In this document: piece after piece, positions 1-63,908 of the stretch | Layout of the letters: every line of letters begins with the position of its first letter | Position numbering within the stretch: the stretch's first letter is position 1 | Translations under genes and position numbers: made by a program | Notes under the pieces: model-generated | What the model saw: only the letters and a program-made list of their open reading frames with translations | What the model was told of the DNA's origin: nothing | Databases searched by the model: none | From: Candidatus Lloydbacteria bacterium RIFCSPHIGHO2_02_FULL_50_18 | GTDB lineage: Bacteria; Patescibacteriota; Minisyncoccia; Phycocordibacterales; UBA6899 | Assembly (NCBI GenBank): GCA_001821395.1 | Contig: MHLM01000003.1 | Location: 46,151 to 110,150, forward strand | Direction of reading: 5' to 3' | DNA length: 64,000 bases

Positions 1-226
1 ATGTGGGAAATATTGTATCATCCAAGGCTATGAAAGGCGCCTGGGTGTATGCTGACCCCATCCTTTGATGCTTCATTTTTTGAATGGAAGAGCAGTCGGG
101 AAACGTATCTCTGTAGTGTTTGTGAGCTAGCATGTACGGCGGATGACAGAATTTAGCCAGCATTTACTTAATATTTTATGTGTGGTACTGTTTTTCGAGC
201 AATAAGCACATTAACTGGAGAAAATT

Positions 227-1030
227 ATGAACGATCTCGACTATATCAAAAAACTTCCATTGGCATACCTGAAATACCTTCCGCGCATCACCGGTCACGC
301 ACTTGTCCTTGGGGGTAGTGGTGGGATCGGCAGTGAGATCGTGCCCGCTCTTGTCGCATACGGTGCAAGTGCGGTCTCTGTCGCGTATGGTCGGAATAAA
401 GCGGCTGCAGAAGCATTGCAGAAAGAATTGCGCGCGGCAAGGGTCACATGTTACATCGGCGCAGTCGATCCGCTTGATGAGAAGAGCTTCAGCGCATTTC
501 TTGACGATGCCGTCCGCGCAGTCGGTGAGGAGATCAGTGTTGCAGTCAATTCCATCGGCTTTTCGCCGAATACTCCGCTTGAAGAACAGACACTTGAAGA
601 ACGGCGGAAAGTGTTCGACGTGAATGTCCATGGCACCGCACTTACATCGCGCTTGATCTTGGCGCGAATGAAGGAAAAGGGTATCGGAGCAAAAGGCTCG
701 CTTGTCCTCATTACGTCGTCGAACGGTATCAATTCGCAGGCATCGTATTCATCGCACTACGATGAGTCGAAGGCGGCACTCATTCCGATGATCAAGAACC
801 TTGCGGAGTTTTATGCGCCGATCCGCGTGAACGGAGTTGCTCCTGGTTGGGTAGAGACTGCAATGAATGACACACTTCCACCTGGAGAGCGCGAAAAGGA
901 AACGGCAAAGATATTCCTCAATCGTTATGCCGATCCCGCCGAGGTCGCCTCATTCGTCGCGTTCATCTCAAGTTCCGGTGGAACGTTCATCAATAATGAA
1001 AATTACAAGATCGACGGCGGTACGCGCTGA
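227..1030 (+). CDS. short-chain dehydrogenase/reductase (SDR) family oxidoreductase
   Basis: 267 aa. N-terminal Rossmann glycine motif (LVLGGSGGIGSEI). SDR-like length and central S...YxxxK-type region. Confidence 0.7.
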   Translation: MNDLDYIKKLPLAYLKYLPRITGHALVLGGSGGIGSEIVPALVAYGASAVSVAYGRNKAAAEALQKELRAARVTCYIGAVDPLDEKSFSAFLDDAVRAVGEEISVAVNSIGFSPNTPLEEQTLEERRKVFDVNVHGTALTSRLILARMKEKGIGAKGSLVLITSSNGINSQASYSSHYDESKAALIPMIKNLAEFYAPIRVNGVAPGWVETAMNDTLPPGEREKETAKIFLNRYADPAEVASFVAFISSSGGTFINNENYKIDGGTR

Positions 1031-1041
1031 TCGATATATTG

Positions 1042-1066
1042 AAAGCCCTCTTCGGAGGGCTTTTTT
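1042..1066 (+). terminator. Rho-independent terminator after SDR gene
   Basis: GC hairpin gccctc-ttcg-gagggc followed by TTTTTT. Confidence 0.8.
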
Positions 1067-1091
1067 GTGACCCTCGTGCCACTTGCATTTT

Positions 1092-1487
1092 TTATAGGGT
1101 TTGGATAATGTTGGTGAATTTTTGTCCGAAGGTTCTCATCTCGATCAGCCTGTGCTCGTCCATCAAGTCGACGATCGCCCCAAGGTCGCCAGCATTTCTG
1201 CTTAAGCGATCCGGGTGCCACGCAAGGATGGCGTTAAACTTGCCCGCCTTGAGGTCATTAATCAGCTCATTGAAGACAGGGCGTTGCCCGGTGCTTTTTG
1301 CCGAGTGTGATTCACGCTTGATGTCGACCACATCAAGCCCCTCCAGTTGTGCCAACTGGAGCATCTCTTTGGCTTGGGAATCGATGGAAAGGGCTTGTTG
1401 TTCGTCCGATTCCGTCGACCTTCTAGCGTATAAACAGTATTTAATTTTTGGCTCGTCAGAGCCCTCTAGCGGGTTTGTATTTTTCAT
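1092..1487 (-). pseudogene. serine recombinase/resolvase N-terminal catalytic domain fragment; C-terminal helix E and DNA-binding domain absent
   Basis: YARRSTESDEQ active-site serine motif and DRLSRN motif. ORF stops after about 130 aa, where the E-helix would begin. No SD. Confidence 0.55.
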
Positions 1488-1551
1488 ACACCACAATGAA
1501 TGACAGAACCCTCCCAGAGAGTCCAGGAAGGGTAGAATAGGTAAAAACAAA

Positions 1552-1581
1552 AGCCACCCGATGAGGGTGGCCTTGTTTTTT
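1552..1581. terminator. bidirectional intrinsic terminator
   Basis: gccaccc-gatgag-ggtggc hairpin with T-runs on both strands. Confidence 0.6.
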
Positions 1582-1589
1582 GTGAGAAA

Positions 1590-2783
1590 TTACAGTCCTC
1601 GTTCAAGTACTGCAATACGCGCAATGTTGTTGCAGAGTTTCCATGTTGCCTGGTCTTTACCAAGCTTGGTTGGATTTCGCATCTCTTTCGCTTGCTCACC
1701 GACAGTTTTTGCCAGCTCATCGGCAAGCGAGCGAAAAACCTTTATTGGGTCGTCCTTCCAGATCGCCTTATCTCCCTCAACTTTCACGAGATTGCGGAAT
1801 GCCGCTAGTACGGGATAGATGAAAGCACTTGGTATTCTATAGTTCGCCTCACTTGAGTTGAAGATAAGTTCTTCATTAGCCATTTTGGGGCGGTTATTGA
1901 TCTGTATCACTCCAGTTAAGGCGCCAAATTTCCCACCGGCAGCTTTATTGTAAGCCTCAGGAAGTTCTCTGTAGATCGTGTCACGTAATTCGAGAATTCT
2001 TGGAATGAGCGGGACATACTTCATCAGGGTGGCTCGATAATTTTTGAAGTGTTCGATCACGTTTGATTTCTGCGAATATGCCATTATTGGATGATGTTCT
2101 TGGTCAAAATGATCGACATCGAAACATACGAGATAGGAAAGAATCTCCTTGATGTCCACATCCTTTGCTTCACCCGTTTTTTCGTCAATCTCATATTCTT
2201 TGTAGGCAATTCGATTTGCATATGGCTTGTCTTTGACTACCTGCTTGATCTCTTCAAAATGCTGATTCAGCTCCTCAAGGCTTTCGGACTTTACTTGAGC
2301 GGAGGTATTACGCGCGAGCACGATCTCAACTGCGTCATCTAGATTTTCAATCCCTTCAATAATTTCGATGCGAACACAGGCATTGATATCCTTTAACTCA
2401 TCTGGATTTGCACTATGGACGAAGTTTTGCAGAACACGGTATGTATGCCCGCCATCCAGTAGGCCGTGACGAGTTGAATCAACTAATTCAAGACTCACCT
2501 CGCCTGTCTTGTTGTCGTATTCGGCCTTGTCAACAAGCAAGGTAATACCGCGATTGCGGAAAAGAAATTGGTCAGGATTGTTTTCGAGTGATTTCTGAAT
2601 CTTCTTGCTGACCCCAGAAGTGATCTTGGGGTCACGCGGATTAATTTTTCGCCACTCCTCTACTTCAGCGGGTAAGTTAACGATGTTTGCTACTGCGATA
2701 TATGATCGGGCCACTGTTTCGTCATGTGGACTCTCGATTCTTCTGAAAGATGCAACTGGAAATTTAATAATTGTGCTTTTCAT
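1590..2783 (-). CDS. defense-island protein, possibly AIPR (abortive-infection phage-resistance) family; contains a DGGH(T) ParB/DGQHR-like motif
   Basis: About 397 aa ORF adjacent to and divergent from the R-M genes. Motif LLDGGHTYRVL. Family call is tentative; no search possible. Confidence 0.4.
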   Translation of the reverse strand: MKSTIIKFPVASFRRIESPHDETVARSYIAVANIVNLPAEVEEWRKINPRDPKITSGVSKKIQKSLENNPDQFLFRNRGITLLVDKAEYDNKTGEVSLELVDSTRHGLLDGGHTYRVLQNFVHSANPDELKDINACVRIEIIEGIENLDDAVEIVLARNTSAQVKSESLEELNQHFEEIKQVVKDKPYANRIAYKEYEIDEKTGEAKDVDIKEILSYLVCFDVDHFDQEHHPIMAYSQKSNVIEHFKNYRATLMKYVPLIPRILELRDTIYRELPEAYNKAAGGKFGALTGVIQINNRPKMANEELIFNSSEANYRIPSAFIYPVLAAFRNLVKVEGDKAIWKDDPIKVFRSLADELAKTVGEQAKEMRNPTKLGKDQATWKLCNNIARIAVLERGL

Positions 2784-3087
2784 ACTGTGTATGGCTAAGC
2801 GAATAAATGGGCAAAATAAAAACATGCCCGGTGCGCATGCTTAGCAGTCGTCTATGAAAAATATTCATTAGGCTGAGCTAAATGTTGGTCGAGATCTCTC
2901 TACGGCCCTCCACAGCTTTCACTACTGGAGTCAGTGTGCGTACATCACTGATTTCATTAGCCTACACCCGTAGCTGGGCTGACGTCAATGAATAACCAAA
3001 CATCCTCTAGAGAGCCAAGAATAAAGGGCAAAAAGCCCATAATTGTCCCCATTTTTCTTAATTTTTTCCTACTTAATTTGATCCGAT

Positions 3088-3098
3088 GTTGCTATAAT
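3088..3098 (+). promoter_or_regulatory. extended -10 promoter element (TGcTATAAT) for methyltransferase gene, short leader
   Basis: tgcTATAAT ends 17 nt upstream of the ATG at 3116. No SD. Confidence 0.4.
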
Positions 3099-3115
3099 TA
3101 GGATACGATTTTTGC

Positions 3116-5041
3116 ATGAGGCTTCTTGAACAACACAAAATTGCTCCCCGCATTTCTGCTTCTCAGGAGAGTGTTTTTGTCACTCGACCACTTCTTAAGT
3201 GGGCGGGAGGGAAAACACAACTGCTTGATGAGCTTCTTCCTAAACTTCCAGATGAGTATGGTCGGTTTATAGAACCGTTCATTGGTGGTGGAGCTTTATT
3301 TTTCAAAGTTAAGCCCAGAAACGGAATAATCGCAGACAGTAACCCGGAACTAGTAAACATGTATCGCTCAGTTGCGGAGAATGTTACTGCTGTCATTGAG
3401 CACCTCACGCGCTATAAGAATACGGAAGAGATGTTTTATAAAGTGCGGGCGCAAGACTGGGGTAATCTTTCTCCAGAGGAAGCAGCCGCACGTACCATCT
3501 ATCTGAATCGCACCTGCTTTAATGGGCTGTATCGAGTCAATAAAAAAGGACAATTCAACGTACCGTATGGTAGATATACGAATCCGCGAATAGTCGACGT
3601 AGAAGGATTAATATCTGCATCTCAGCTTTTGCAGAATACCAAAATAATCTGTGGTGACTACAAGAGCGTGTTGCGCGAAGAAGCACGTGCTGGTGATTTT
3701 ATCTTTCTTGATCCTCCCTATTTGCCCATATCAGAATATGCAGACTTCAAGAGATACACCAAGGAGCAATTTTATGAAGAGGACCACGTGGAACTAGCAG
3801 AAGAAGTACGACGCCTTCATGACTTGGGATGTCACGTTGTTTTAACAAACTCGAATCATCCGTTGGTGCATGAGCTGTATCAAGGATTTGAGATAGAGGT
3901 AATTCAATCAAGGCGCAACATCAGTTCAAATGCAAAGAGTAGAACAGGGGAGGACGTAATTGTCACAGCAATACCTAGGCACCGCTTCAATAAGAGACTC
4001 ATAATTACTCCACAACCTGAACAATTACTGAAGTACCCATCAACAAGATACATGGGATCGAAGAATAAATTGCTAGATCAAATCTGGGCAGTTGCTTCAC
4101 AGTTTAATTTTGATACTGCTGTGGACCTATTTTCGGGATCCGGCATAGTTGGCTATATGTTTAAGGCGCATGGCAAAGAAGTGCTATCAAATGACTATAT
4201 GACGATGTCTGCCGTTTTTGCAAAGGCCATGGTGGAGAATAATAATGTTCGTCTCACGGAGAAAGATATAAATGCACTACTCAAGTCACATCGTGCGGTC
4301 GATCGTTTTGTCCAAGAAACTTTCGGAGGATTGTATTTTACCGACGAAGAAAACAAGCTCATTGATATCGTCAGGTCTAATGTAAAAAAACTGAAAAACC
4401 CGCACAAGAGAGCAATAGCAATGTCTGCGTTGATACGAGCGTGTGTCAAAAAAAGGCCACGAGGTATTTTTACTTATGTTGGACACAGGTATGATGACGG
4501 ACGCCGTGATCTCTCCATCTCTTTTGAGCAACAGTTCGTTGAGGCAATACAGGCCATCAATGCTTCAATCTTCGACAACGGAAAGAAGAACAAGGCACGA
4601 CAGGGTGATGCCATGAGCATTAATACCGGACATCCTGGCTTGGTTTACATTGATCCTCCATACTTTAGTCCATTTTCTGACAATGAATATGTGCGCCGGT
4701 ATCATTTTGTTGAGGGGTTGGCCCGCGATTGGAAGGGTGTTGAAATTCAAGAGCACACACTAACAAAGAAGTTTAAAAACTACCCCACTCCCTTTTCATC
4801 AAGAAATGGTGCATATGATGCTTTTGATCTTCTATTCAAGCGTTTTCGCAATAGTATTTTAATCGTTTCGTATTCTTCAAACAGCCTCCCCACGCTTGAT
4901 GAGATGGTTGCACTTATGGCAAAACATAAGCGACATGTCGAAGTCATACCCGTTGATTATAAATATTCGATCGGCAACCAAGGGCATAAAGTTAACGATA
5001 ACCGGAATAACGTTAAAGAATACTTGTTTGTTGGATACTAA
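3116..5041 (+). CDS. Type IIS-style fused two-domain N6-adenine DNA methyltransferase (M.FokI-like; two Dam/D12-class domains)
   Basis: 641 aa. Domain 1: LLKWAGGKTQLLDEL, FIGGGALFF, LDPPY. Domain 2: YMGSKNKLL, FSGSGIVGY, IDPPYFSP. The architecture and the roughly 640-aa length are those of M.FokI. Confidence 0.85.
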   Translation: MRLLEQHKIAPRISASQESVFVTRPLLKWAGGKTQLLDELLPKLPDEYGRFIEPFIGGGALFFKVKPRNGIIADSNPELVNMYRSVAENVTAVIEHLTRYKNTEEMFYKVRAQDWGNLSPEEAAARTIYLNRTCFNGLYRVNKKGQFNVPYGRYTNPRIVDVEGLISASQLLQNTKIICGDYKSVLREEARAGDFIFLDPPYLPISEYADFKRYTKEQFYEEDHVELAEEVRRLHDLGCHVVLTNSNHPLVHELYQGFEIEVIQSRRNISSNAKSRTGEDVIVTAIPRHRFNKRLIITPQPEQLLKYPSTRYMGSKNKLLDQIWAVASQFNFDTAVDLFSGSGIVGYMFKAHGKEVLSNDYMTMSAVFAKAMVENNNVRLTEKDINALLKSHRAVDRFVQETFGGLYFTDEENKLIDIVRSNVKKLKNPHKRAIAMSALIRACVKKRPRGIFTYVGHRYDDGRRDLSISFEQQFVEAIQAINASIFDNGKKNKARQGDAMSINTGHPGLVYIDPPYFSPFSDNEYVRRYHFVEGLARDWKGVEIQEHTLTKKFKNYPTPFSSRNGAYDAFDLLFKRFRNSILIVSYSSNSLPTLDEMVALMAKHKRHVEVIPVDYKYSIGNQGHKVNDNRNNVKEYLFVGY

Positions 5042-5061
5042 AGATATAGGATTGTGAAATC

Positions 5062-6810
5062 ATGTCAGGAGTATGGAATATAGGAAATACCACAGTTCGC
5101 AACCCCAAAAGAATTGAAATGGGACTACGCCTACTCCACGAAGGTGGATTCTTGGGCAACCTTGAGGGAGAGGAAAATGAAATTAAACTTACCGACGCAC
5201 TGGTGCAGTCTGGGGTTGTTGATTCCGCCTCTAAAGAAAAGAGTTCTGCTTGGCTGGGTCGCAAGTGGAGAAATGTGATGGTGAAGCTGGGCTTTATTAC
5301 CGACAAGGCATATCGAATAGAAGGAAAAGCTGTATCTCACAGTAAAATATTCACAGAAATAGGTGCGGATATGAATGCTTACTCTCTTACTCCCGCAGGG
5401 GAGAGGTTGGTAATGGCAAAGACGCTTGGAGAAGTGCAAGATGTTTTCTTGCAACAACTGTATCGACACCAATTGCCAAATCCTCTTGAAAAGAAAGTTC
5501 CCAAAGACGCACCACCCATGCGACCCTTTGTGCTCCTGCTTGATGTCCTGCTTAGCTTGCAGAACGACGATGCTGGGATTTCCCAGACGGAAACAGCAAT
5601 ATTTATACAAGAAATACAAAGCCACACTCAGGACACGGGAGTAAAGATAGCCATGAAGATTATTGCTTACAGAAAAAAGAGAGGAATGTTGTCTTCAAGG
5701 AGGGAAAAACTAATCTTTGACAAGGAACTTTTGAGCGAAGTTTCAACAAGGGCGAAGGTCAAACTACTGACTCCTCGTGACTATGCCGATACCACAATTA
5801 GATATTTTTCCATGACAGGGCTTTTTGAAGTTCATGGATCCCGGATGTGTATCAAAGCTGAAAAAAGAAACGTTGCAGAGGAATTAGTAAAGAGCTCACA
5901 AGATCTTTTTGTAATTACTGACCCCGTTCAGTATCTCAAGGAGTTTTATGTTGGAACTGGGTTGCCAACCGATAACACGAGGGTGTTAAACGAGGAGCTT
6001 GCTGCGCTCAAAGAAATAGCACATGAATTAAAAATCAAAACCAAGGCTACGGGAGAAAAAGATCCCAACAGGTTAAAGGCGGAAAAATATAAACTTGAAG
6101 AAGATATTTTGTTTGCCAAAGAGGAGCAATTTGCACTTTTGCAACAGAATCCTGATCAGGTTGAAGACATAATCTCGTCCCTGTCTAAGATAGCTACAAG
6201 TGATCGCGACTTTTTGCGCAGCCTCGTGGATCTCCCCGCTTATCTAGAGTGGATTGTTTGGAGAGGATTTTTGTCTGTTGATCATATTACGGTCCCAACA
6301 AAAGAAACACGTGGCTTTCCTGTTGATTCCGATTTGCAGCCAAGATATCCTGCCCCAGGGGGTAGACCGGATATGTCCTTTGAGTTTTTGGACTACAGTC
6401 TTGTTGTCGAAGTGACATTAACCACCTCCACTCGACAATATATTGCCGAGTGTGAGCCAGTAAGAAGACATGTTGCCAACGGAAAAGGTGGAAAGGAGAC
6501 ACTCGGAATTTTTATTGCTCCCACCCTCGACAATAACTTTCTCCATAAAGTGCGAGAGCACTTCCGTGGTGACGAGCTAATAATGCTAAAGATTTTACCG
6601 CTCACGATTTCACATTTTGTTCGCTTGCTTGAGGTACACAAGTCCACATCCATTACGCCCGACGACGTTAAGGATCTAATCTTGAGGGTCAATAGTAGTG
6701 AATCCTCAAATGGTCTTGAGTGGAAGAAGCATATTGAGCAGACTTTTGATGAATGGTTACAAGAACATGGAGCAGTCGATGCTGTGAGAGGAAAGGTCGT
6801 GGCGGCGTAG
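5062..6810 (+). CDS. Type IIS restriction endonuclease, FokI-like (N-terminal recognition region, C-terminal PD-(D/E)xK cleavage domain)
   Basis: 582 aa (FokI is 587 aa). C-terminus GGRPDMSFEFLDYSLVVEVT aligns by eye to FokI RKPDGAIY...DYGVIVDTK. The downstream AECEPVRRHV segment matches ADEMQRYVEE. It sits immediately after the two-domain methyltransferase. Confidence 0.6.
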   Translation: MSGVWNIGNTTVRNPKRIEMGLRLLHEGGFLGNLEGEENEIKLTDALVQSGVVDSASKEKSSAWLGRKWRNVMVKLGFITDKAYRIEGKAVSHSKIFTEIGADMNAYSLTPAGERLVMAKTLGEVQDVFLQQLYRHQLPNPLEKKVPKDAPPMRPFVLLLDVLLSLQNDDAGISQTETAIFIQEIQSHTQDTGVKIAMKIIAYRKKRGMLSSRREKLIFDKELLSEVSTRAKVKLLTPRDYADTTIRYFSMTGLFEVHGSRMCIKAEKRNVAEELVKSSQDLFVITDPVQYLKEFYVGTGLPTDNTRVLNEELAALKEIAHELKIKTKATGEKDPNRLKAEKYKLEEDILFAKEEQFALLQQNPDQVEDIISSLSKIATSDRDFLRSLVDLPAYLEWIVWRGFLSVDHITVPTKETRGFPVDSDLQPRYPAPGGRPDMSFEFLDYSLVVEVTLTTSTRQYIAECEPVRRHVANGKGGKETLGIFIAPTLDNNFLHKVREHFRGDELIMLKILPLTISHFVRLLEVHKSTSITPDDVKDLILRVNSSESSNGLEWKKHIEQTFDEWLQEHGAVDAVRGKVVAA

Positions 6811-6871: not shown

Positions 6872-7147
6872 CTACAATCCACGCTCAAGAACGGCAATGC
6901 GAGCACGCTTTCAGACAATGGGTTCGGCCTACGTGTTTTTGATGGCGCGGTAGAAATTCACGATTCGACGATCGCGGGTAACGAAACGGGCATAATGAAT
7001 ACAGATATTGATATGGTGGTTGACGCCACAAGGAATTATTGGGGAGACGCTGACGGGCCGACGCTTTCGGGTGAAGCAGCTGATGGTGACAGCATCTCGG
7101 AAAATGTTTTGACCGAAGGTTTCCTCGTCGCTCCGCCGATGATCTAA
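6872..7147 (+). pseudogene. 3' remnant of a parallel beta-helix (PbH1) repeat protein gene, no start codon
   Basis: Open frame reads ...NGNASTLSDNGFGLRVFDGAVEIHDSTIAGNETGIMNTDIDMVVDATRNYWGDADG...PPMI*. A stop codon lies just upstream and no upstream start is present. Confidence 0.45.
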
Positions 7148-7272
7148 GAAGGGTCGATTACCGATGTTTTGTCCAAGCGCAAGACCACTGGACGGCATCA
7201 CCTATACCGGTAGTCCTTGTCATGAAATTGCCCATGTAAGCATCAAAGAATCCTTCGGTGTGTTAACATGAA

Positions 7273-7521
7273 GTGATGAAATCAAAAGGATGGGGACTTG
7301 AGTTGATCGGGGCGTATGGAATGGTGATGATACTCGGAGCGTATTTTTTGACGTCTTTTAATTATGTTCTTGCCGATAATCTCTGGTATCAATTGATGAA
7401 TCTTACGGGTGGTATGGCTTTTGTGTACTACACGCTCACGAAAAAGGCGTGGGCGTCCCTCGGGGTCAACTCGGTGTGGGTCATCATCGCCGCCGTCAGT
7501 CTCTGGAAGATGTTCATGTAG
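7273..7521 (+). CDS. small hydrophobic membrane protein, unknown function
   Basis: 82 aa with 2-3 predicted TM helices. The antisense ORF looks like noise. Confidence 0.45.
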   Translation: MMKSKGWGLELIGAYGMVMILGAYFLTSFNYVLADNLWYQLMNLTGGMAFVYYTLTKKAWASLGVNSVWVIIAAVSLWKMFM

Positions 7522-13551: not shown

Positions 13552-15585
13552 ATGAATCTTGAAAAATTCTTTCATCCCGAGTCGGTCATGGTGATCGGGG
13601 CGCGTCCCGAGGAAGGACACGTGGGCTCCGCGATCATGAAGAATCTTCTCGCCGGAGCGAAGCGTACGCTCTACCCCGTCACTCCCGACTACAAGGAGGT
13701 GCTGGGTATTCCCGCATATGCCTCCATTGATGAAGTACCCGGAAGTCCCGACCTTGCCGTCATCGCGATACGCTCTGACCTAGTCCCGACCGCACTGCGC
13801 GCATGTGTCGCAAGGGGGGTGAAGGCGGCGGTCGTCATCTCTGCGGGCTTCAAGGAGGCCGGCGAGAAGGGGAAGCTGCTTGAAGAAGAATTGGTAGAGA
13901 TCGGTCGTGAGTCGGGCATTCCATTCCTCGGTCCCAATTGTCTCGGAGTGATCGACGGCAACACGGACCTCAATGCATCGTTCGCATTGCATAAGCCAAT
14001 GCCGGGAGCCATCGGTTTTGTCTCACAGTCCGGAGCTATCGGCACAGCATTCATCGAGTGGTCCCGCTCGGAGGGTGTTGGTATCTCAAAATTCATAAGT
14101 CTCGGGAATGAGGCGGGAGTATCAGAACTCGCGATGCTTGAGTACCTAGGGAATGATCCGGAAACGAAAGCTATTCTCGTCTATCTCGAGCACGTCTCCG
14201 ACGGTGCCCGCTTTCTTTCTGTCGCGAAAGAGATTATCAAAGAAAAGAAAAAGCCCATCGTACTCTTGCGGTCCGGCCGGTCCGCGCGCGGAGGCGCCGC
14301 CGTCATGAGCCACACCGGCTCGCTTGCTCCCGAAGACGCCATCTTCACCGCGGCCTGCAATCAGGCGGGTATCGCGACGGTGACGAACCTGCGTGATCTT
14401 TTTAACGCGTCGAAATTGCTCTCGCTCGGGACGAATTGGGGAGATAAGACGCATATTGCTATCGTGACGAACGGCGGCGGTCCGTCGGTGAACGCCGCAG
14501 ATCTCGTGGAACTTTCCGAATCGATGGAGCTCGTGCGATTCCCTGATGCGACGAAAGATGCGCTGCGCGGCGTGCTCCCATTCATGGCGGCCGTGGGAAA
14601 TCCGATCGATGTGATCGGGGACGCCGGAGCTGATCGCTATCGATCCGCACTGGATATCGTCGTTCAACAACATGATGTAGATGCGATCATCGTGATCGTC
14701 ACGCCGCAGATGATGACGGACGCTCGAGCTATCGCAGAAACGATCGTATCCTTCAAAGATATGAAACTGATCATGCCAGTCTTCATGGGAGGAGAGGTGA
14801 TGCGCGGCGGCATTGATGTGCTTCTTGCGAACGGGATGGTGAACTTTGACCTCCCGTCCGATGCTATTTTTGTACTGGATGCGCTTACTCCGAAGAAGAA
14901 GATCCCGCTTCCCGCAAAGATCCATGCGGCCTCGACCGCAAAGATGCTTTCTCACGAAGCGGCATCGGAGTTACTCAAGAAATATGACTGTGAAATATTC
15001 GGTGCTCTTGCGCACAAAAAAGAAGAAGCGGTACGTATCTTCGCCGAGCTTGGTGTAGAGCATGTTGCGATGAAGGTTGTTTCACAAAATGTCATACACA
15101 AGACCGAAGCCTCTGCAGTGCGACTCAACGTGGGAAGTGCTGACGTTCTCCGCACCTGGGACGAGATAGCGCTCGGAGTGAAGGCTATTGCGCCGGATGC
15201 GACGATCGAGGGGATGCTGCTGCAGCCGATGATCAAGGGAAAAGAAGTGATCATTGGCATGAAGCGCGATGCAACGTTCGGCCCCGTGATCGTTTTCGGT
15301 CTTGGTGGGATATTCGTTGAACTCCTAAGCGATGTGTCCATGCGCATCGCCCCGTTCGCCATCGAAGAGGCGAGAGGAATGATCGACGAGATTGCAGGTG
15401 TACGATATCTCGAAGGCTTCCGTGGATCCGAGCCCGTCGACAAGGAGGCGCTCGCGCAGTTGCTTGTTGCCATCGGTCGTCTCTCCGCTGAAAATCCCAT
15501 GATCACCGAGATCGATCTCAATCCCGTCATCGCAACAAAAAACCGGGCATACATTGTTGATGCTCGGCTGATGTCGGCACAGTGA
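13552..15585 (+). CDS. acetyl-CoA synthetase (ADP-forming), fused alpha-beta (NDP-forming acyl-CoA synthetase)
   Basis: 677 aa. CoA-binding N-terminus (VMVIGARPEEGHVG), succinyl-CoA-synthetase-like and ATP-grasp regions. Confidence 0.85.
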   Translation: MNLEKFFHPESVMVIGARPEEGHVGSAIMKNLLAGAKRTLYPVTPDYKEVLGIPAYASIDEVPGSPDLAVIAIRSDLVPTALRACVARGVKAAVVISAGFKEAGEKGKLLEEELVEIGRESGIPFLGPNCLGVIDGNTDLNASFALHKPMPGAIGFVSQSGAIGTAFIEWSRSEGVGISKFISLGNEAGVSELAMLEYLGNDPETKAILVYLEHVSDGARFLSVAKEIIKEKKKPIVLLRSGRSARGGAAVMSHTGSLAPEDAIFTAACNQAGIATVTNLRDLFNASKLLSLGTNWGDKTHIAIVTNGGGPSVNAADLVELSESMELVRFPDATKDALRGVLPFMAAVGNPIDVIGDAGADRYRSALDIVVQQHDVDAIIVIVTPQMMTDARAIAETIVSFKDMKLIMPVFMGGEVMRGGIDVLLANGMVNFDLPSDAIFVLDALTPKKKIPLPAKIHAASTAKMLSHEAASELLKKYDCEIFGALAHKKEEAVRIFAELGVEHVAMKVVSQNVIHKTEASAVRLNVGSADVLRTWDEIALGVKAIAPDATIEGMLLQPMIKGKEVIIGMKRDATFGPVIVFGLGGIFVELLSDVSMRIAPFAIEEARGMIDEIAGVRYLEGFRGSEPVDKEALAQLLVAIGRLSAENPMITEIDLNPVIATKNRAYIVDARLMSAQ

Positions 15586-15637
15586 CCCCTTGCTATTCTG
15601 CGGGTAGCAGTGATTTAAGGTCGAAATTCGGATCAGC
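15554..15637. repeat. left copy of an 84-bp direct repeat (covers ACD 3' end plus the 3' end of the convergent gene)
   Basis: Identical to 16473-16556 except one transition. Confidence 0.95.
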
Positions 15638-16472
15638 AAGTTGCGATTTTTTAGTTTTAAAATTATTTTTTCCCGAGTACGTTTTCGTATTTGAGTGCTA
15701 AATCAAGGCTGCTTTTTAAAAACTCTTCAAAGGAGCTTCCCGTTTTAATGTGTGTTCGATAACAGTCTTCAAAATACGTTACGAGTTTTTTCGTACCGAC
15801 TTTTAGGTCTGCAAATTCAGTGTATTGGTACTGTTTATGTTTATGGAGGTGCTGTATTTCCTTACTGTTATTGATGATGATTGGTGCAAGTATTTCACTG
15901 AGTTTCCAGACAAGATGGGGAGTATCACGTTCACGTTTCTTTGTTTTAGGGAAAACCTCCATCAATTTTTTGAAATAGAAGAAATGGAGAATCTCATGCA
16001 TTGCAATTGGACGCATGGATGAGGTCTTTGTGTAATCAACGTTGAATTCCCAGGTATCCAAAAAACGGGGATAGATAGGAATAATGGAGACATAAGCAGT
16101 GATCACTTTTTTATTCTTTGGGTACGTGGTTTCGCAAAGCTTCGAAAGAGTATACAGATAGTCATCATTTATTTTACTCCAGTCTTTTTGATAGAGGGAA
16201 ATAGTCTGATCGATTTTGTCTTTGTGTGTCGCAATGAAATGTTTTGCGTACTCAGATATACGTTTGCGGTACAGGCGACGATTACTCGTCTTCAATATTT
16301 CCTCGAGTGAAGGAAATGCTTTGTAGATATTCTTACTCCAGTCGAAACCTGATTTGTCTGGTGTGCAAAAATATAGTAGTAAATCAACCTCCTGCTTTAG
16401 TTGTGCTCTTTTAAATATGACCTTGAGCATGTAAATATGGAAAATTACGAGAATGAGCAAGCATTACTTTTT
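15638..16472. mobile_element. 835-bp very AT-rich single-gene insertion bounded by 84-bp direct repeats
   Basis: Sequence between the repeat copies carries only ORF 15663-16460. Its composition differs strongly from the flanks. Confidence 0.45.
15663..16460 (-). CDS. hypothetical protein with HExxH motif (possible zincin-like metallopeptidase), AT-rich cargo gene
   Basis: 265 aa. PIAMHEILHF followed by downstream Glu candidates. Lys/Tyr/Phe-rich composition typical of low-GC foreign DNA. Confidence 0.45.
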   Translation of the reverse strand: MLILVIFHIYMLKVIFKRAQLKQEVDLLLYFCTPDKSGFDWSKNIYKAFPSLEEILKTSNRRLYRKRISEYAKHFIATHKDKIDQTISLYQKDWSKINDDYLYTLSKLCETTYPKNKKVITAYVSIIPIYPRFLDTWEFNVDYTKTSSMRPIAMHEILHFFYFKKLMEVFPKTKKRERDTPHLVWKLSEILAPIIINNSKEIQHLHKHKQYQYTEFADLKVGTKKLVTYFEDCYRTHIKTGSSFEEFLKSSLDLALKYENVLGKK

Positions 16473-16556
16473 TGTTGATGCTCGGCTGATGTCGGCACAG
16501 TGACCCCTTGCTATTCTGCGGGCAGCAGTGATTTAAGGTCGAAATTCGGATCAGCG
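16473..16556. repeat. right copy of the 84-bp direct repeat (the functional 3' end of the downstream gene lies here)
   Basis: Encodes the C-terminal ...AELADPNFDLKSLLPAE* of ORF 16511-17755 on the minus strand. A non-coding duplicate of the ACD 3' end is disrupted by a T4 insertion. Confidence 0.95.
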
Positions 16557-17755
16557 AGCTCGGCCTTTTTTGTTGAGACGTCAGCGCGTGCGGCAATGAG
16601 GCTCACGATGGGAGCAAGCTCAAGCGTGCGATTGATCATCGACGCGCCGATCACACGTCCACCGCGCAAGATGATGCGGCCAAGTTTCCGCTCCTTCGCA
16701 TTGCCGCGCATGATATATTCTCTGTTCTCTTTCATGCGTCCGTCTCCCGCGAATGCAATGGTGTCCTCGAAGCCGTGGCTTAAGTGGAAGGAGACGAGGT
16801 CGTAGCATGATCTATCTCCGAGCATATTTGCGGCAGCCGTCTTTCCCTGCTTTTGCGCATTCATCCAATTACCCATGACGACAGAATCGTCGAGGGTCAT
16901 ATCTTTGTATCGCGCAGTATCTCCCGCCACCCAGACATCCGGCAGAGAAGTTTCCAGATATTCGTTCGCTAGGATGCCCCGATCGAGCGCTATCCCCGAT
17001 GAAATGAGCCACTCCGTCGGTATCTCAGTGCCGATGAACGCAAAGACCATGTCGCACTCGAGGTGTGTGCCGTCTTTTAATATCACTCCCTCAACCTTCT
17101 TGTCTCCCAAGACTTTCACGATCTCCATGTTCCGCATGATCGTCACACCCCGTTCAAGAAGCCTGTCTTCAACGATGCCTGACTCCTCTCGTGATATTGA
17201 GGGCTCCCAAAAATACGCTTCGCGCATCACTTCGGTGATCTTGATCCCCTTTGAGTAGAGGACGTCGGCGACTTCATATGTCACACAGGAGCTCCCAACG
17301 ATTACGGCGTGCTTGTTTTGCTGGTTGAGGTCCGCGATGATCTTCATCGCGTGATCGAGTGTCCGTAGGTAGAATACTCCATCAAGGTCCGCTCCGGGGA
17401 TTCCCCAGGCGCGATTGTGTGTTCCTGTCGCAAGCAGGAGTTTATCATAGTGAAATATCTCACCGTTGCTCACGGTCAGCATTTTTGTTCCGGCATCAAG
17501 CGCAACCGCACGTTGGCTTGTAAGCAGTGTGATGTTGTTCGTCTTGTACCATTCCGGAGACTTCATCCATATCGTATCGACACTCTTCTCACCAGTCAGG
17601 ATCGAGGGTTTTGAAAGCAATACGCGTGAGTAGAGACGATGCGCCTCATCCGTGAGGATGGTGATCGATCCCTCTTTATCGCGCTTACGAAGCTCTTCCG
17701 CCGCCGTAGTTCCTGCGATGCCGCCCCCAACGATGAGATAAGTGACGCTTTGCAT
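16511..17755 (-). CDS. FAD-dependent pyridine nucleotide-disulfide oxidoreductase (ferredoxin/rubredoxin-NAD(P)+ reductase or NADH oxidase-like)
   Basis: 414 aa. N-terminal FAD dinucleotide motif IVGGGIAGTTAAEEL. Second Rossmann motif VIVGSSCVTYEVA. Confidence 0.8.
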   Translation of the reverse strand: MQSVTYLIVGGGIAGTTAAEELRKRDKEGSITILTDEAHRLYSRVLLSKPSILTGEKSVDTIWMKSPEWYKTNNITLLTSQRAVALDAGTKMLTVSNGEIFHYDKLLLATGTHNRAWGIPGADLDGVFYLRTLDHAMKIIADLNQQNKHAVIVGSSCVTYEVADVLYSKGIKITEVMREAYFWEPSISREESGIVEDRLLERGVTIMRNMEIVKVLGDKKVEGVILKDGTHLECDMVFAFIGTEIPTEWLISSGIALDRGILANEYLETSLPDVWVAGDTARYKDMTLDDSVVMGNWMNAQKQGKTAAANMLGDRSCYDLVSFHLSHGFEDTIAFAGDGRMKENREYIMRGNAKERKLGRIILRGGRVIGASMINRTLELAPIVSLIAARADVSTKKAELADPNFDLKSLLPAE

Positions 17756-51877: not shown

Positions 51878-52441
51878 ATGGAAGAAGAGAACAACATTTC
51901 TGCCACCCCTGTGCCCGCAACGCGTCAATGGTATGCGATCCATACCTACTCGGGATATGAGAATGCGGTGGTGCGCAATTTGCGACAACGTATCGAATCA
52001 CTCGGCATGGAAGATAAGATCTTTGATGTTGTTGTGCCAAAGGAAAAAAAGATCAAGATGAAAGCAGGTAAGCGCGCCGAAGTGGAGGAGGAGATCTATC
52101 CCGGCTATGTGCTCGTCAATATGATCTATGATCCCGACTCATGGTATGTGGTACGCAATACCCCTCGCGTCACGGGCTTTGTCGGCGCCGGCGTTGTTCC
52201 CGTGCCGCTCAATCAGAAGGAGATCGATGCGCTCTTCGGCCGCATGGGCTCAAAGATGGTGAAGCACGCAATCGACCTTACGGTTGGGGAGTCAGTGATC
52301 ATCACCGACGGCCCATTCAAGGAGCTTGAGGGACGTGTGGGCGAAGTGGATACTGAGCGTGGTCGTGTGAAGGTCATGGTCCCCATGTTCGGACGCGAGA
52401 CCCCCGTTGAATTGGATTTCCTTCAGATCAGGAAGATCTAG
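51878..52441 (+). CDS. nusG: transcription termination/antitermination factor NusG
   Basis: NGN domain (WYAIHTYSGYE) and KOW domain (GESVIITDGPFKELEGRV). Confidence 0.9.
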   Translation: MEEENNISATPVPATRQWYAIHTYSGYENAVVRNLRQRIESLGMEDKIFDVVVPKEKKIKMKAGKRAEVEEEIYPGYVLVNMIYDPDSWYVVRNTPRVTGFVGAGVVPVPLNQKEIDALFGRMGSKMVKHAIDLTVGESVIITDGPFKELEGRVGEVDTERGRVKVMVPMFGRETPVELDFLQIRKI

Positions 52442-52498
52442 ATGGTCTAAGGTCACTCCTTGGCTTTGAAAGGTGTGACCTTGATGAAGTTGACCATC
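52440..52498 (+). other. conserved structured hairpin element, copy 1 (overlaps nusG stop codon)
   Basis: agatggtc-taa-ggtcac-t-cctt-ggctttga-aagg-t-gtgacc-ttgatgaagtt-gaccatct. A second copy at 63814-63872 has compensatory stem changes. Confidence 0.6.
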
Positions 52499-63100: not shown

Positions 63101-63701
63101 CTTCATGCCGTTCATCGCCGAGGATCTTTATCAGCGTCTCGCCATTGAAGACAAGAAGGAGAGTGTGCACCTTGAGCATTGGCCGGATGTCGGTGTCGCA
63201 GCAAGCGGCATCCTGAGCGAAATGGAAGTCGTACGCAAAATGGTAGAGGTCGCCCTCGCGCTTCGCGCTGAATCGGGGATGAAAGTGCGTCAGCCACTCT
63301 CGGAACTCTCATACAACCTCGAAGACAAAAAAGTACTCAGCGATGAAATGCTCGGCATCATAGCAGATGAGGTGAATGTCAAACATGTCGTCTTTGACGA
63401 AGAGATACGTATCACGGCCGAGAACAATAGCGATCACAAGTTGAGCGATCATGCGGGGATGCTCGTTTCCCTCGACATTGCGCTTACTCCAGAACTGAAA
63501 GAAGAAGGACAACTCCGCGACCTCATCCGCACCATTCAGGACATGCGCAAGAAAGCAGGTCTCAATCCAAGTGATCGCATCACCGTGACTGCACCAAAGG
63601 ACCAAATCGTTCTCCTCGAAAAATACCGCACCGAAGCCTCTCCGATCATAGGTGCCGATAATTTTAGCGCTGGCATGGAACTCACCATCGCGAAGGTGTA
63701 G
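60174..63701 (+). CDS. ileS: isoleucine--tRNA ligase (type 2) with an inserted histidine-phosphatase (PGAM-like) domain
   Basis: HYGHLLQS (HIGH), WAISRSRFWGAPLP, KMSKKLKN. 1175 aa. About 209 aa (61704-62330) beginning MVMRHGEAESN and containing IVTHEYG lie between the zinc-knuckle halves WRCNKCG and YHCSCG. Confidence 0.9.
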   Translation: MDEEDKKRSINEREEAVLAFWKERDIFEKSLQQNVGKDPYVFYDGPPFATGLPHYGHLLQSTIKDLIPRYQTMRGRYVRRKWGWDCHGLPIENIVEKELGFKSKKDIEEYGIEQFNQMARDSVLTYDKEWKSVVPRMGRWVDMEHAYRTMDASYTESVWWGFKALYDKKLIYEGFKSMHICPRCETTLAVSEVSQGYKDIKDISVYIKFELVDEPGTFLVAWTTTPWTLPGNVAVAVNPDITYSKITHEGSTYIVAKERSIEVMKRGFGEQFSFNGDEFNTIEGKELIGRSYKPLFDYYVNDEKLEHRENAWKVVGADFVTVESGTGIVHEAPAFGEEDMELAKKLKLPMIQHVSMDGTMKPEVRDFAGMHVKPKSDDDKVRLSTDIAVLKYLQEHGTFFAKENLTHSYPHCWRCDTPLLNYAASSWFVNVTALKPRLIEENKEINWIPENFRDGRFGKWLEGARDWAISRSRFWGAPLPVWRCNKCGKVDALGSLNELREKIGSSNTYMVMRHGEAESNLNNIVSYKPEDEIHLTEKGRAQVKASAVKLKEKGIDLIIVSPVLRTKETADIVADVLGIAKSEIVVDSRITEVNTGDFSGCPIENYRAYFTSTLEKFTKPCPGGETLEQMRMRIAAFLYDIEEKYHGRKILIVTHEYGTWMMEAAAKGATNEESALMREEQGEDYIDYAEVHVLPFVNIPHNQHYELDYHRPYIDRVNYHCSCGLGTMTRIPEVFDCWFESGSMPYAQFHYLGDETTPEGKLFVKNFPADFISEGADQTRGWFYTMLILSVGLFDRAAFKSVITTGLVLAEDGMKMSKKLKNYPDPVEMAEKYGADAVRFYMLNSPIVRGEELRFSALGVDEVFKKITIRLDNVRSFLEMYAKDAVIARAQPRSKNVLDRWIVARWFEMHAEVTHHLDTHELDRATRPIMPFLDDLSTWYLRRSRDRFKSDDMDDRIAATETTGWILLQFARLIAPFMPFIAEDLYQRLAIEDKKESVHLEHWPDVGVAASGILSEMEVVRKMVEVALALRAESGMKVRQPLSELSYNLEDKKVLSDEMLGIIADEVNVKHVVFDEEIRITAENNSDHKLSDHAGMLVSLDIALTPELKEEGQLRDLIRTIQDMRKKAGLNPSDRITVTAPKDQIVLLEKYRTEASPIIGADNFSAGMELTIAKV

Positions 63702-63783: not shown

Positions 63784-63908
63784 TTGGCCAGAGCAGAAAG
63801 TGCCCCAATTGAAGACGGACTAAGGTCTCTCCTTGGCTTTGAAAGGTGAGACCTTGAAGAAGTTCGTCCGTCTTTTATCAACGAGACTTTTTCTGCTCTG
63901 GCGCAACC
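63784..63908 (+). other. conserved structured hairpin element, copy 2, enclosed in an additional 17-bp outer stem
   Basis: Core gacggac-taa-ggtctc-t-cctt-ggctttga-aagg-t-gagacc-ttgaagaagtt-cgtccgtc-TTTT. Outer stem ttggccagagcagaaag / ctttttctgctctggcgcaa. Confidence 0.6.

What the first reader, a model, noticed from the sequence alone, without database searches (positions are those of the whole stretch)
15554..16556. 835-bp very AT-rich single-gene insertion flanked by 84-bp direct repeats that duplicate the 3' ends of two convergent genes
The sequence ttgttgatgctcggctgatgtcggcacagtgaccccttgctattctgcggg(t/c)agcagtgatttaaggtcgaaattcggatcagc occurs at 15554-15637 and 16473-16556. It comprises the last 9 codons of the ACD gene, a 13-bp spacer and the last 16 codons (minus strand) of the FAD oxidoreductase gene. 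This is the ancestral convergent junction. Between the copies sits a single minus-strand gene (265 aa) whose base composition is far lower in GC than its surroundings. Its product has an HExxH motif (PIAMHEILHF) with downstream Glu candidates, suggesting a zincin-like metallopeptidase. Target duplications of 84 bp are far longer than transposon TSDs. A Campbell-type integration of a small circular element carrying a copy of this junction, or a cassette-style insertion, would explain it. No integrase is present.
Basis: seen in the sequence. Interest (0 to 1): 0.6.

Follow-up and report, generated by a model that had tools for sequence, protein, structure and literature searches.

The report
Single-gene cassette flanked by target duplication
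A lone gene for a zinc-protease-like enzyme was inserted between two back-to-back metabolic genes of an ultra-small (CPR) bacterium, duplicating 84 bp so both neighbours stayed intact; the same gene family shows similar duplications at unrelated sites in other ultra-small bacteria and archaea, so it looks like an undescribed kind of mobile gene.

Summary
An 84-bp direct repeat (15554-15637 and 16472-16555; one mismatch) brackets an 834-bp, 36-38% GC insert in 52-55% GC DNA. The insert carries one minus-strand gene.

A relative (L171) has the uninterrupted junction in the same synteny, and that junction aligns as a single copy across the whole repeat. So this is an insertion with target duplication. 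Twelve independent contigs carry it, so it is not an assembly artefact.

The insertion is old. A lineage 8-10% diverged (L001) shares the same insert boundaries, and the gene is under purifying selection (dN/dS 0.17). The window's repeat copies are being kept identical.

At least six other members are bracketed by 22-105-bp duplications of unrelated local targets (5/127 family genes vs 0/271 control ORFs; p = 0.003). In a DPANN clade, an ~800-900-bp unit with fixed ends recurs in different species.

No integrase, no terminal inverted repeats (in the window), no tRNA and no circular form were found. The insertion mechanism is unresolved.

The parts
13552..15585 (+). ADP-forming acetyl-CoA synthetase (ACD) gene, 677 aa; left-hand neighbour, intact
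   Evidence: ORF list. Pfam CoA_binding, Succ_CoA_lig and ATP-grasp_5.
15554..15637 (.). Direct-repeat copy 1 (84 bp): functional ACD 3' end with stop (15554-15585), 7-bp spacer (15586-15592), and a non-functional copy of the oxidoreductase 3' end (15593-15637)
   Evidence: It aligns with the single-copy junction of L171.
15638..15662 (-). 25-nt 3' flank of the inserted gene. It may be a decayed continuation of the duplicated oxidoreductase sequence (about 15/21 matches to L171, but A-rich, so not significant)
15663..16430 (-). Inserted gene: 255-aa cytoplasmic, basic (pI 9.5) gluzincin-like metallohydrolase of an unannotated CPR/DPANN family. HEILH at residues 145-149, with invariant E179 and Y203. 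The mechanical ORF extends to a TTG at 16460 (265 aa)
16431..16471 (-). 41-nt 5' flank of the inserted gene (insert-specific; conserved in L001)
16472..16555 (.). Direct-repeat copy 2 (84 bp): non-functional copy of the ACD 3' end (16472-16503), 7-bp spacer (16504-16510), and the functional oxidoreductase 3' end with stop (16511-16555)
16511..17755 (-). FAD-dependent pyridine-nucleotide-disulphide oxidoreductase (ferredoxin-reductase-like), 414 aa; right-hand neighbour, intact
   Evidence: ORF list. Pfam Pyr_redox_2 and Reductase_C. Named as Candidatus Lloydbacteria in a source record.

Best explanation
What it is: an ~834-bp single-gene cassette with no recombinase of its own, inserted between the stop codons of two convergent genes in an ancestor of this Candidatus Lloydbacteria lineage.

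Shown:
- The insertion duplicated at least 84 bp of target, so ACD and the oxidoreductase each keep a complete 3' end plus their original downstream sequence.
- The insertion is fixed in the population and old.
- The gene is maintained by purifying selection.
- The gene belongs to a large, unannotated CPR/DPANN family that is repeatedly found as a discrete ~0.8-kb unit in unrelated contexts. About 5% of copies still carry 22-105-bp duplications of whatever local sequence they landed in: gene 3' ends, a terminator plus promoter, or an RBS plus 5' coding sequence.

Inferred:
- The two repeat copies are kept identical by gene conversion between them, each half being functional in one copy.
- The product is a cytoplasmic zinc metallohydrolase with a gluzincin-type site (H145, E146, H149, E179, Y203). 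Its substrate is unknown.
- Mechanism (my best guess, about 35-40%): the cassette enters as foreign DNA and is joined to the chromosome in an 'ends-in' or staggered configuration by illegitimate (microhomology or nick-primed) repair. The stretch between the two joints is copied on both sides. In these gene-dense genomes only such duplication outcomes survive, because a deletion or a flush insertion would damage a neighbour.
- A trans-acting transposase that makes long staggered cuts is the next-best mechanism.

The confidence given (0.75) is for the 'what it is' part: a mobile single-gene cassette inserted with target duplication and encoding a zincin-like enzyme. It is not for the specific joining mechanism.
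For: - Repeat and composition.
- Not an artefact: 12 contigs carry the same structure.
- Empty site: L171 has the same NifU-ferredoxin-oxidoreductase / ACD-POR synteny and a single-copy junction.
- Age: L001 has identical insert boundaries. Oxidoreductase, ACD and family gene are 92.1, 90.1 and 93.5% identical in nucleotides. The family gene's dS (0.22) lies within the neighbours' range (0.13-0.40) and its dN/dS is 0.17.
- Repeat maintenance: the only difference between the copies is shared with L001. No later substitutions occur in 77 nt of pseudo-ends, where about 8 or more are expected.
- Family: 89 close hits, about 1,003 clusters at 50% identity, 186 species genomes in CPR and DPANN, and no hit in any annotation library.
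- Active-site pattern and fold.
- Recurrent flanking duplications: window, L091, L083, L043, L042, L015, L086, and composite L029. Control: 5/127 family genes vs 0/271 other ORFs at 60 bits or more, Fisher p = 0.003. The repeats are two-copy and local.
- Discrete unit: inserts are 815-856 bp in 6 of 7 tight cases. The L007/L008 paralogs are similar only from ATG-3 to stop+6. DPANN copies are 85-94% identical over ~800 nt with fixed ends in different species.
- No conserved partner gene. Not on viral contigs, phages or plasmids.
Against: - No step of the insertion mechanism has been observed.
- Only about 5-7% of family copies retain flanking repeats. One of them (L023) has a third copy of its repeat nearby.
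- Random illegitimate joining predicts variable insert boundaries. The tight insert sizes and the fixed ends in the DPANN clade fit a dedicated transposition system better.
- That DPANN clade shows a 26-bp inverted repeat but no long direct repeats. More than one mobilisation route may therefore exist.
- L001's pseudo-oxidoreductase end matches the window's oxidoreductase end 20/20 but its own functional end only 16/20. This could mean the copies already differed at insertion, which would favour a donor-derived copy as in the Campbell model.
- The low GC is partly explained by the Lys/Ile/Phe/Tyr-rich protein.
Confidence: 0.75

Rival explanations
1. Non-autonomous transposable cassette (MIC-like), moved in trans by a transposase encoded elsewhere that cuts the target with long, variable staggers. 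Gap fill-in then gives 22-105-bp target-site duplications.
For: - Discrete unit size.
- Fixed ends and a 26-bp inverted repeat around the gene in a DPANN clade.
- There is a precedent for long, variable duplications (8-514 bp) made by IS1549/IS1634, with no known model (PMC2266710).
- MICs are inverted-repeat-bracketed passenger genes without a transposase; the first one described carried a peptidase gene (PMC3913671).
Against: - No terminal inverted repeats or shared end motif in the window or in any repeat-flanked case.
- The clade with inverted repeats lacks long direct repeats.
- No transposase is seen near the gene. The commonest neighbours are NUDIX (11/135) and a serine recombinase (6/135).
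- The inverted-repeat motif has no extra copies in the loci held.
Confidence: 0.2
2. A small circular molecule carrying the gene plus a copy of the junction integrated by homologous or site-specific (Campbell-type) recombination, leaving one junction copy on each side.
For: - It gives exactly this topology.
- The 84-bp repeats could still support pop-out and re-integration.
- L001's pseudo-oxidoreductase end resembles the window's allele more than its own functional end. That is expected if one copy came from a donor.
Against: - Flanking duplications at the other loci are unrelated sequences, so each event would need a circle that had already picked up the local target.
- There is no integrase.
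- No circular contigs: L165, L166 and L170 have no terminal overlap and carry ordinary flanks.
- All 12 contigs of this population are in the filled state.
- The model explains spread within a species, not how the first duplication arose.
Confidence: 0.15
3. Self-mobilising element. The zincin-like protein itself promotes insertion of its own gene, for example by nicking or processing DNA or a DNA-protein intermediate.
For: - The only thing common to all events is this ORF.
- The unit is essentially the ORF alone.
- There is no conserved partner gene.
- The protein is basic, pI 9.5.
Against: - The best structural matches are peptidase catalytic domains with a peptidase-type H-E-x-x-H...E...Y pattern.
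- No DNA-binding domain is recognised.
- No metallopeptidase-fold recombinase is known.
- Most copies look vertically inherited and ameliorated to host GC.
Confidence: 0.1
4. Assembly artefact or chance repeat. The duplication comes from a chimeric or collapsed contig.
For: The source is a metagenome-assembled genome, and the repeat is shorter than a read pair.
Against: - An identical structure is found in 12 contigs from several independent assemblies and samples.
- A diverged lineage (L001) carries the same insert with decayed repeat copies.
- The gene is under purifying selection.
Confidence: 0.01

Closest known systems
Phage 'morons' (single-gene independent insertions between genes that are adjacent in relatives; PMC3594210)
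   Same: One extra gene whose GC differs from its surroundings, sitting between two genes that are directly adjacent in a related genome (L171). No mobility gene of its own. Spread by horizontal transfer.
   Different: It lies in a cellular chromosome inside a core energy-metabolism cluster, not in a prophage. The family is absent from phage and viral collections. No promoter or terminator of its own was found by consensus scan. Morons are not known for long flanking target duplications.
Mobile insertion cassettes (MIC231 and relatives; PMC3913671)
   Same: A passenger gene without a transposase, about 1 kb, with target duplication. MIC231A1 even carries a peptidase gene. A DPANN sub-clade of this family has a 26-bp inverted repeat around the gene.
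   Different: The window's insert and all repeat-flanked copies lack inverted repeats. The duplications are 22-105 bp and variable, rather than a few bp. No cognate IS has been identified.
IS1549 / IS1634 (IS1634 family), which make long variable-length direct repeats (PMC2266710)
   Same: Target duplications of tens to hundreds of bp that vary from copy to copy, with no mechanistic model.
   Different: Those are 1.5-2-kb insertion sequences that encode a DDE transposase and have terminal repeats. Here there is no transposase and the cargo is a zincin-like enzyme.
Integrase-driven elements that integrate into the 3' end of a gene and carry a replacement 3' end (attL/attR direct repeats). From general knowledge, not tested by a cited paper here
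   Same: Direct repeats that reconstitute the 3' end of the target gene, so the gene stays intact.
   Different: No integrase. The repeats are a true duplication of the local target and differ completely between family members. Here two convergent genes are reconstituted at once.
MA-clan gluzincin metallopeptidases (M1 aminopeptidase, M30 and thermolysin-like catalytic domains)
   Different: No sequence-profile match to any Pfam, NCBIfam or PDB entry. The His-to-Glu spacing is 30 residues. It has its own N-terminal helical domain. Foldseek found nothing significant. Activity is untested.

Membership tests
MA-clan (gluzincin) zinc metallopeptidase | HExxH zinc-binding/catalytic motif | tested here: met
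   H145, E146 and H149 are invariant in 44 aligned family members.
MA-clan (gluzincin) zinc metallopeptidase | Third zinc ligand Glu on a helix downstream of HExxH | tested here: inconclusive
   E179 in the 'LSE' motif is invariant, 30 residues after H149, and lies in helix 173-188 of the model. Coordination geometry was not measured.
MA-clan (gluzincin) zinc metallopeptidase | Thermolysin-like catalytic fold | tested here: inconclusive
MA-clan (gluzincin) zinc metallopeptidase | Match to a curated peptidase family profile | tested here: not met
   No Pfam or NCBIfam hit. No PDB sequence relative. One rare fusion partner is Peptidase_MA_2, but that is a separate domain.
MA-clan (gluzincin) zinc metallopeptidase | Zinc-dependent peptide-bond hydrolysis | not testable with these tools
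   Needs biochemistry.
Integrase-mediated integrative element (Campbell-type, attL/attR) | Tyrosine or serine recombinase encoded in or next to the element | tested here: not met
   The insert holds one ORF only. A serine-recombinase fragment lies 14 kb away in a separate island. A recombinase is nearby in only 6 of 135 loci.
Integrase-mediated integrative element (Campbell-type, attL/attR) | Element carries a fixed att core shared by its copies | tested here: not met
   The flanking repeats of the different family members are unrelated local sequences.
Integrase-mediated integrative element (Campbell-type, attL/attR) | Detectable circular or excised form | tested here: inconclusive
   Short contigs that carry homologs are linear with ordinary flanks. 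All 12 contigs are in the filled state. Raw reads were not available.
Autonomous insertion sequence / transposon | Transposase gene | tested here: not met
   The single ORF is zincin-like and matches no transposase family.
Autonomous insertion sequence / transposon | Terminal inverted repeats | tested here: not met
   No inverted repeat longer than 7 nt between the insert ends in any repeat-flanked case.
Mobile insertion cassette (MIC) | Passenger gene bracketed by inverted repeats, without a transposase | tested here: not met
   Not met for the window. Partly met in a DPANN clade, with a 26-bp split inverted repeat in L105, L038, L028 and L039.
Mobile insertion cassette (MIC) | Cognate IS with the same inverted repeats that supplies transposase in trans | not tested
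   Only 6-12 kb is held per locus. The motif has no extra copies there.
Integron gene cassette | attC recombination site at the cassette boundary | tested here: not met
   The repeats are the host genes' own 3' ends, as the empty site in L171 proves. No Rfam or structured element was found.
Phage moron | Located in a phage or prophage genome | tested here: not met
   The neighbours are NifU, ferredoxin, oxidoreductase, ACD and POR genes. The family is absent from viral and phage collections.
Phage moron | Extra gene with deviating GC between genes that are adjacent in relatives | tested here: met

The most novel reading that the evidence does not exclude
The HExxH protein family defines a new class of minimal, single-ORF mobile element shared by CPR bacteria and DPANN archaea. 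In this reading, insertion generates long (tens to about 100 bp), variable target duplications by a dedicated mechanism that is not yet known. That mechanism would be catalysed either by the zincin-like protein itself or by an unrecognised host or partner system, and it would keep the neighbouring genes of these ultra-compact genomes intact.
Probability: 0.2. Interest if true: 0.9.

Novelty: new variant of a known kind. Interest (0 to 1): 0.62.

Why it matters
CPR bacteria and DPANN archaea have tiny, tightly packed genomes. How they gain genes without wrecking their neighbours is poorly understood.

This case gives a concrete, recurrent pattern: a ~0.8-kb single-gene unit that lands in or next to gene ends, terminators and promoters and leaves a 22-105-bp duplication that preserves both neighbours. 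The pattern could come from a dedicated mechanism or from selection acting on sloppy repair. Either way, it is a testable route of gene gain in streamlined genomes.

It also flags a large protein family (about 1,000 clusters) with a confident structure and a peptidase-type active site that no database names. The family is restricted to the two ultra-small radiations across the bacterial-archaeal divide.

Tried and rejected
- **Free circular form.** Contigs of ~930 bp that carry homologs (L165, L166, L170) have no terminal overlap and contain ordinary flanking DNA. Rejected on present data.
- **tRNA, tmRNA or structured-RNA target.** A 'GGTTCGAA' motif in two repeats suggested tRNA-type att sites, but ARAGORN and Rfam found nothing at any target.
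- **The short flanks between ORF and repeat are decayed target copies,** which would make the foreign DNA the ORF alone. This is supported only for L015 (5' side, p = 0.002) and L086 (3' side, p = 0.04); pooled p is about 0.04. For the window, the match of about 15/21 to L171 lies in an A-rich stretch. Not adopted as a general claim.
- **The L051 '135-nt repeat' as a cassette-array signature.** It is just the 5' ends of paralogous nucleotidyltransferase genes.
- **L173 and the extra L001 ORF as further repeat-generating insertions at this junction.** Neither has flanking repeats.
- **A conserved partner or mobilising gene.** None found.
- **Vehicles.** No hits on viral contigs, phages or plasmids.
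- **A strong secondary structure in the repeat (bidirectional terminator).** Fold z-scores of -0.5 to -1.35 are not significant. The consensus scan found no terminator.
- **The afdb50 structure library** was unavailable.
- **Recent inter-domain transfer.** The best archaeal-bacterial identity is only 57%.
Full report
**1. The observation**

The window contains an 84-bp direct repeat at 15554-15637 and 16472-16555, with a start-to-start spacing of 918. The only mismatch is 15605 T / 16523 C. It is the longest direct repeat in the 64-kb window, and only one other repeat family of 30 nt or more exists.

Each copy consists of three parts:
- the last 2 nt + 9 codons + stop of the ACD gene (32 nt);
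- a 7-bp spacer;
- the stop + last 14 codons of the oxidoreductase on the other strand (45 nt).

Copy 1 supplies the real end of ACD (13552-15585, +). Copy 2 supplies the real end of the oxidoreductase (16511-17755, -). The other half of each copy is a non-functional duplicate.

Between the copies lie 834 bp at GC 0.36-0.39, against 0.52-0.58 on either side. They carry a single minus-strand ORF.

The spacer is 7 bp rather than 13. The oxidoreductase part is 14 codons plus the stop rather than 16 codons.

**2. A real insertion, not an artefact**

The exact oxidoreductase protein is encoded on 12 independently assembled contigs. All those inspected have the same gene and the same 84-bp repeat at the same spacing.

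A relative whose oxidoreductase is 71% and whose ACD is 86% identical (L171) has the same gene order: NifU, ferredoxin and oxidoreductase converging on ACD, POR-beta and POR-alpha. In L171 only 10 bp separate the two stop codons. That junction aligns as a single copy along the full length of the window's repeat.

**3. Age and maintenance**

A second lineage (L001) carries the same gene with the same 41-nt upstream and 25-nt downstream insert-specific flanks. That indicates one ancestral event.

| Gene, window vs L001 | Nucleotide identity | Amino-acid identity |
|---|---|---|
| Oxidoreductase | 92.1% | 96.1% |
| ACD | 90.1% | 95.0% |
| Inserted gene | 93.5% | 92.5% |

The inserted gene's dS (0.22) lies within the range of its neighbours (0.13-0.40), and its dN/dS is 0.17. 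The gene has therefore been co-inherited with its neighbours and is functional.

In L001 the repeat copies have decayed. A further unrelated 175-aa ORF has been inserted into copy 2, removing the last four ACD codons.

In the window the two copies differ at one site only. That same difference is present between the corresponding L001 copies, so it predates the split. At the observed dS, the 77 nt of non-functional repeat sequence should have gained roughly eight or more substitutions since the split. None is seen. The simplest reading (inference) is gene conversion between the two copies, with selection acting on whichever half is functional. Near-identity of the repeats is therefore not evidence of a recent insertion.

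**4. The gene product**

Homologs are about 255 aa, so the likely start is the ATG at 16430 rather than the TTG at 16460. The protein has no hit in Pfam, NCBIfam, PHROGs, PADLOC or PDB sequences.

It belongs to a sizeable family:
- 89 close clusters;
- 1,003 representatives at 50% clustering with E of 0.001 or less;
- 186 species-level genomes.

Almost all members come from CPR/Patescibacteria and DPANN archaea. Nearly all are single-domain proteins of about 250 aa.

The protein is basic (pI 9.5) and has no hydrophobic segment. I conclude it is a cytoplasmic gluzincin-like metallohydrolase, only distantly related to known families, with an unknown substrate. The specific suggestions of ImmA/IrrE, SprT or DUF955 are not supported.

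**5. The family behaves as a mobile single-gene unit**

*GC.* Across 80 genome loci and 80 metagenome loci, the gene's GC is below that of its flanks almost everywhere.

*Flanking duplications.* A scan for direct repeats bracketing the gene found long, tightly placed repeats at several independent loci besides the window:

| Locus | Host | Repeat |
|---|---|---|
| L091 | metagenome contig | 71 bp, 94% |
| L083 | Micrarchaeaceae archaeon | ~103 bp, 89-91% |
| L043 | Magasanikbacteria | 44 bp, 100% |
| L042 | Paceibacterota | 49 bp, 94% |
| L015 | CPR MAG (record title: Saccharibacteria) | 68 bp, 96% |
| L086 | metagenome contig | 22-37 bp |
| L029 | composite case that also encloses a MazF-like gene | 49 bp |

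*What is duplicated.* The duplicated sequences are unrelated to one another and are whatever lies at the site:
- L083: the RBS, start codon and first ~28 codons of the downstream gene.
- L043: the tail of the EF-P terminator plus the AT-rich stretch (possibly the promoter) and the start codon of the next gene.
- L015 and L042: terminator-like hairpins.

*Controls.*
- The repeats are two-copy and local. L023 is the exception, with a third copy nearby, so I set it aside.
- With identical settings, 5 of 127 family genes but 0 of 271 other ORFs of similar size in the same loci have flanking repeats of 60 bits or more (Fisher p = 0.003).
- No tRNA, tmRNA or Rfam element lies at any target.

**6. 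The unit is discrete and barely larger than the ORF**

- In six of the seven tight cases, the DNA between the repeats is 815-856 bp. That leaves 5-40 nt after the stop and as little as 7 nt before the ATG.
- Two paralogous copies in one MAG (L007, L008) are 87.6% identical over exactly 777 nt, from ATG-3 to stop+6, and unrelated beyond.
- In a Nano/Woese/Pacearchaeota clade, copies from different species are 85-94% identical in nucleotides over ~800-850 nt. The end points recur from pair to pair and the flanks are unrelated.
- In that clade the gene is preceded by a TATA-like ATTAATAAAC. It is also bracketed by a 26-bp inverted repeat, TGTTATGTCTAATTTCAAATGTGCGC and its complement. The right arm is sometimes split by a ~67-nt hairpin-bearing segment. 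Those copies have no long direct repeats.
- The repeat-flanked copies, including the window's, have no terminal inverted repeats and no shared end motif.

**7. What was not found**

- No recurrent neighbour gene. NUDIX appears in 11 of 135 non-redundant loci, a large serine recombinase in 6, and a small GIY-YIG protein in 5.
- No family member on IMG/VR viral contigs, GenBank phages or PLSDB plasmids.
- No circular contigs.
- Archaeal members form at least two groups. The best archaeal-bacterial identity is 57%, so inter-domain transfer is old.

**8. Mechanism**

*Shown.* The window has an insertion with an 84-bp target duplication that leaves both neighbours intact. The same kind of duplication recurs at unrelated targets for the same gene family. 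The unit is small and discrete. No recombinase is present.

*Inferred.* The duplication implies that the two joints between insert and chromosome were made in a crossed ('ends-in') or staggered arrangement, 22-105 bp apart, and that the intervening segment was copied on both sides. I see four ways to get there.

- **(a) Illegitimate, microhomology- or nick-primed joining of incoming DNA.** Selection in these gene-dense genomes then removes every outcome that deletes or splits a neighbour's end, so only duplications persist. This needs no special enzyme. It explains the variable lengths, the absence of end motifs, and why the duplicated segments always contain something a neighbour needs. It is weaker at explaining the tight unit size. 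Two unrelated accessory genes with weaker flanking repeats (L074, L136) hint that the pattern may not be exclusive to this family. About 35-40%.
- **(b) A trans-acting transposase with long, variable staggered cuts.** IS1549 and IS1634 make 8-514-bp duplications by an unknown mechanism (PMC2266710). Inverted-repeat-bracketed passenger cassettes without a transposase (MICs) are known (PMC3913671). The DPANN inverted repeat fits this. The lack of inverted repeats in the repeat-flanked cases does not. About 20%.
It explains spread within a species and would account for L001's pseudo-end resembling the window's allele. It cannot explain how unrelated targets came to be duplicated at other loci, and no circles were seen. 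About 15%.
- **(d) Self-mobilisation by the zincin-like protein.** About 10%.

The remainder is unassigned.

**9. Comparison with known systems, and novelty**

The finding works like a phage moron transplanted to a cellular chromosome: a foreign-GC single gene between genes that are adjacent in relatives (PMC3594210). It also resembles a mobile insertion cassette. It fails the defining tests for both. It is not in a phage, and it has no inverted repeats in the window. It likewise fails the tests for integrase-driven elements, autonomous insertion sequences and integron cassettes (see the membership table).

Long, variable duplications have a precedent only in the IS1634 family, which encodes a DDE transposase. 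I found no description of this protein family or of this insertion pattern. A survey of horizontal transfer in Patescibacteria (PMC12455944) does not mention direct repeats or peptidases. I therefore class the finding as a new variant of a known kind, a recombinase-less mobile gene cassette. There is a modest chance that it represents a new mobility mechanism.

**10. Verdict**

The insertion and zincin parts of the interpretation are supported. The Campbell-circle mechanism is neither shown nor favoured.

The main added value is the family-level pattern: a CPR/DPANN-restricted, unannotated zincin-like gene that moves as a ~0.8-kb unit and repeatedly leaves long target duplications. Interest 0.62.

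Noticed in passing
window 52440-52491 and 63813-63864: A 52-nt element occurs twice (90% identical), each time just downstream of a gene: a NusG-like ORF at 51878-52441 and a 1175-aa tRNA-synthetase-like ORF at 60174-63701. It forms nested hairpins, and the two copies differ by compensatory changes (AGATGGTC..GACCATCT vs AGACGGAC..GTCCGTCT; GGTCAC..GTGACC vs GGTCTC..GAGACC). It has no Rfam match. It could be a structured RNA or a terminator-like element.
   Followed up: partly
window 1-6810: A low-GC (0.42-0.44) island with restriction-modification or defence-like content: a serine-recombinase N-terminal fragment (1092-1550, -), a 411-aa ORF (1590-2825, -), a 641-aa double DNA-methyltransferase-like ORF (3116-5041, +) and a 582-aa ORF (5062-6810, +). 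A very similar large serine recombinase lies near the family gene in 6 of 135 other loci.
   Followed up: partly
L001 4655-5357: A second, unrelated 175-aa ORF (4734-5261) was inserted inside repeat copy 2 of the related lineage. It removed the spacer and the last four ACD codons, giving ACD a new 7-residue C-terminus. It has no flanking duplication.
   Followed up: yes
L173 6220-7289: In a relative whose oxidoreductase is 64% identical, the same oxidoreductase/ACD junction holds two other small ORFs (163 aa and 176 aa). They have native GC and no flanking repeats. The junction is therefore a recurrent place for gene gain.
   Followed up: yes
L074 8762-9985; L136 1585-2760: Two unrelated accessory ORFs in DPANN/CPR loci also have flanking direct repeats: a NYN/LabA-like gene (L074 9010-9816, 32 nt at 94%) and a secreted-protein gene (L136 1813-2664, 64 nt at 86%). 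This hints that flanking duplications may not be exclusive to the zincin-like family.
   Followed up: partly
L008 2787-3386: The 199-aa ORF immediately upstream of the family gene is a distant paralog that keeps an HEILH motif (hhalign E = 3e-4). In the near-identical strain L088, this ~1-kb upstream segment is replaced by different genes, with the breakpoint at the family gene's start codon.
   Followed up: partly
L105, L038, L028, L046, L040: about +15 to +90 after the family gene's stop codon: In the DPANN clade, a short hairpin downstream of the gene keeps its structure through compensatory stem changes between species. In some loci it appears to split the right arm of the 26-bp inverted repeat.
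   Followed up: partly
L029 5806-7410: A MazF/PemK-like 128-aa ORF (6892-7278, -) lies together with the family gene inside one pair of 49-nt direct repeats. In L023, a NUDIX gene shares the repeat-bounded segment with the family gene.
   Followed up: no
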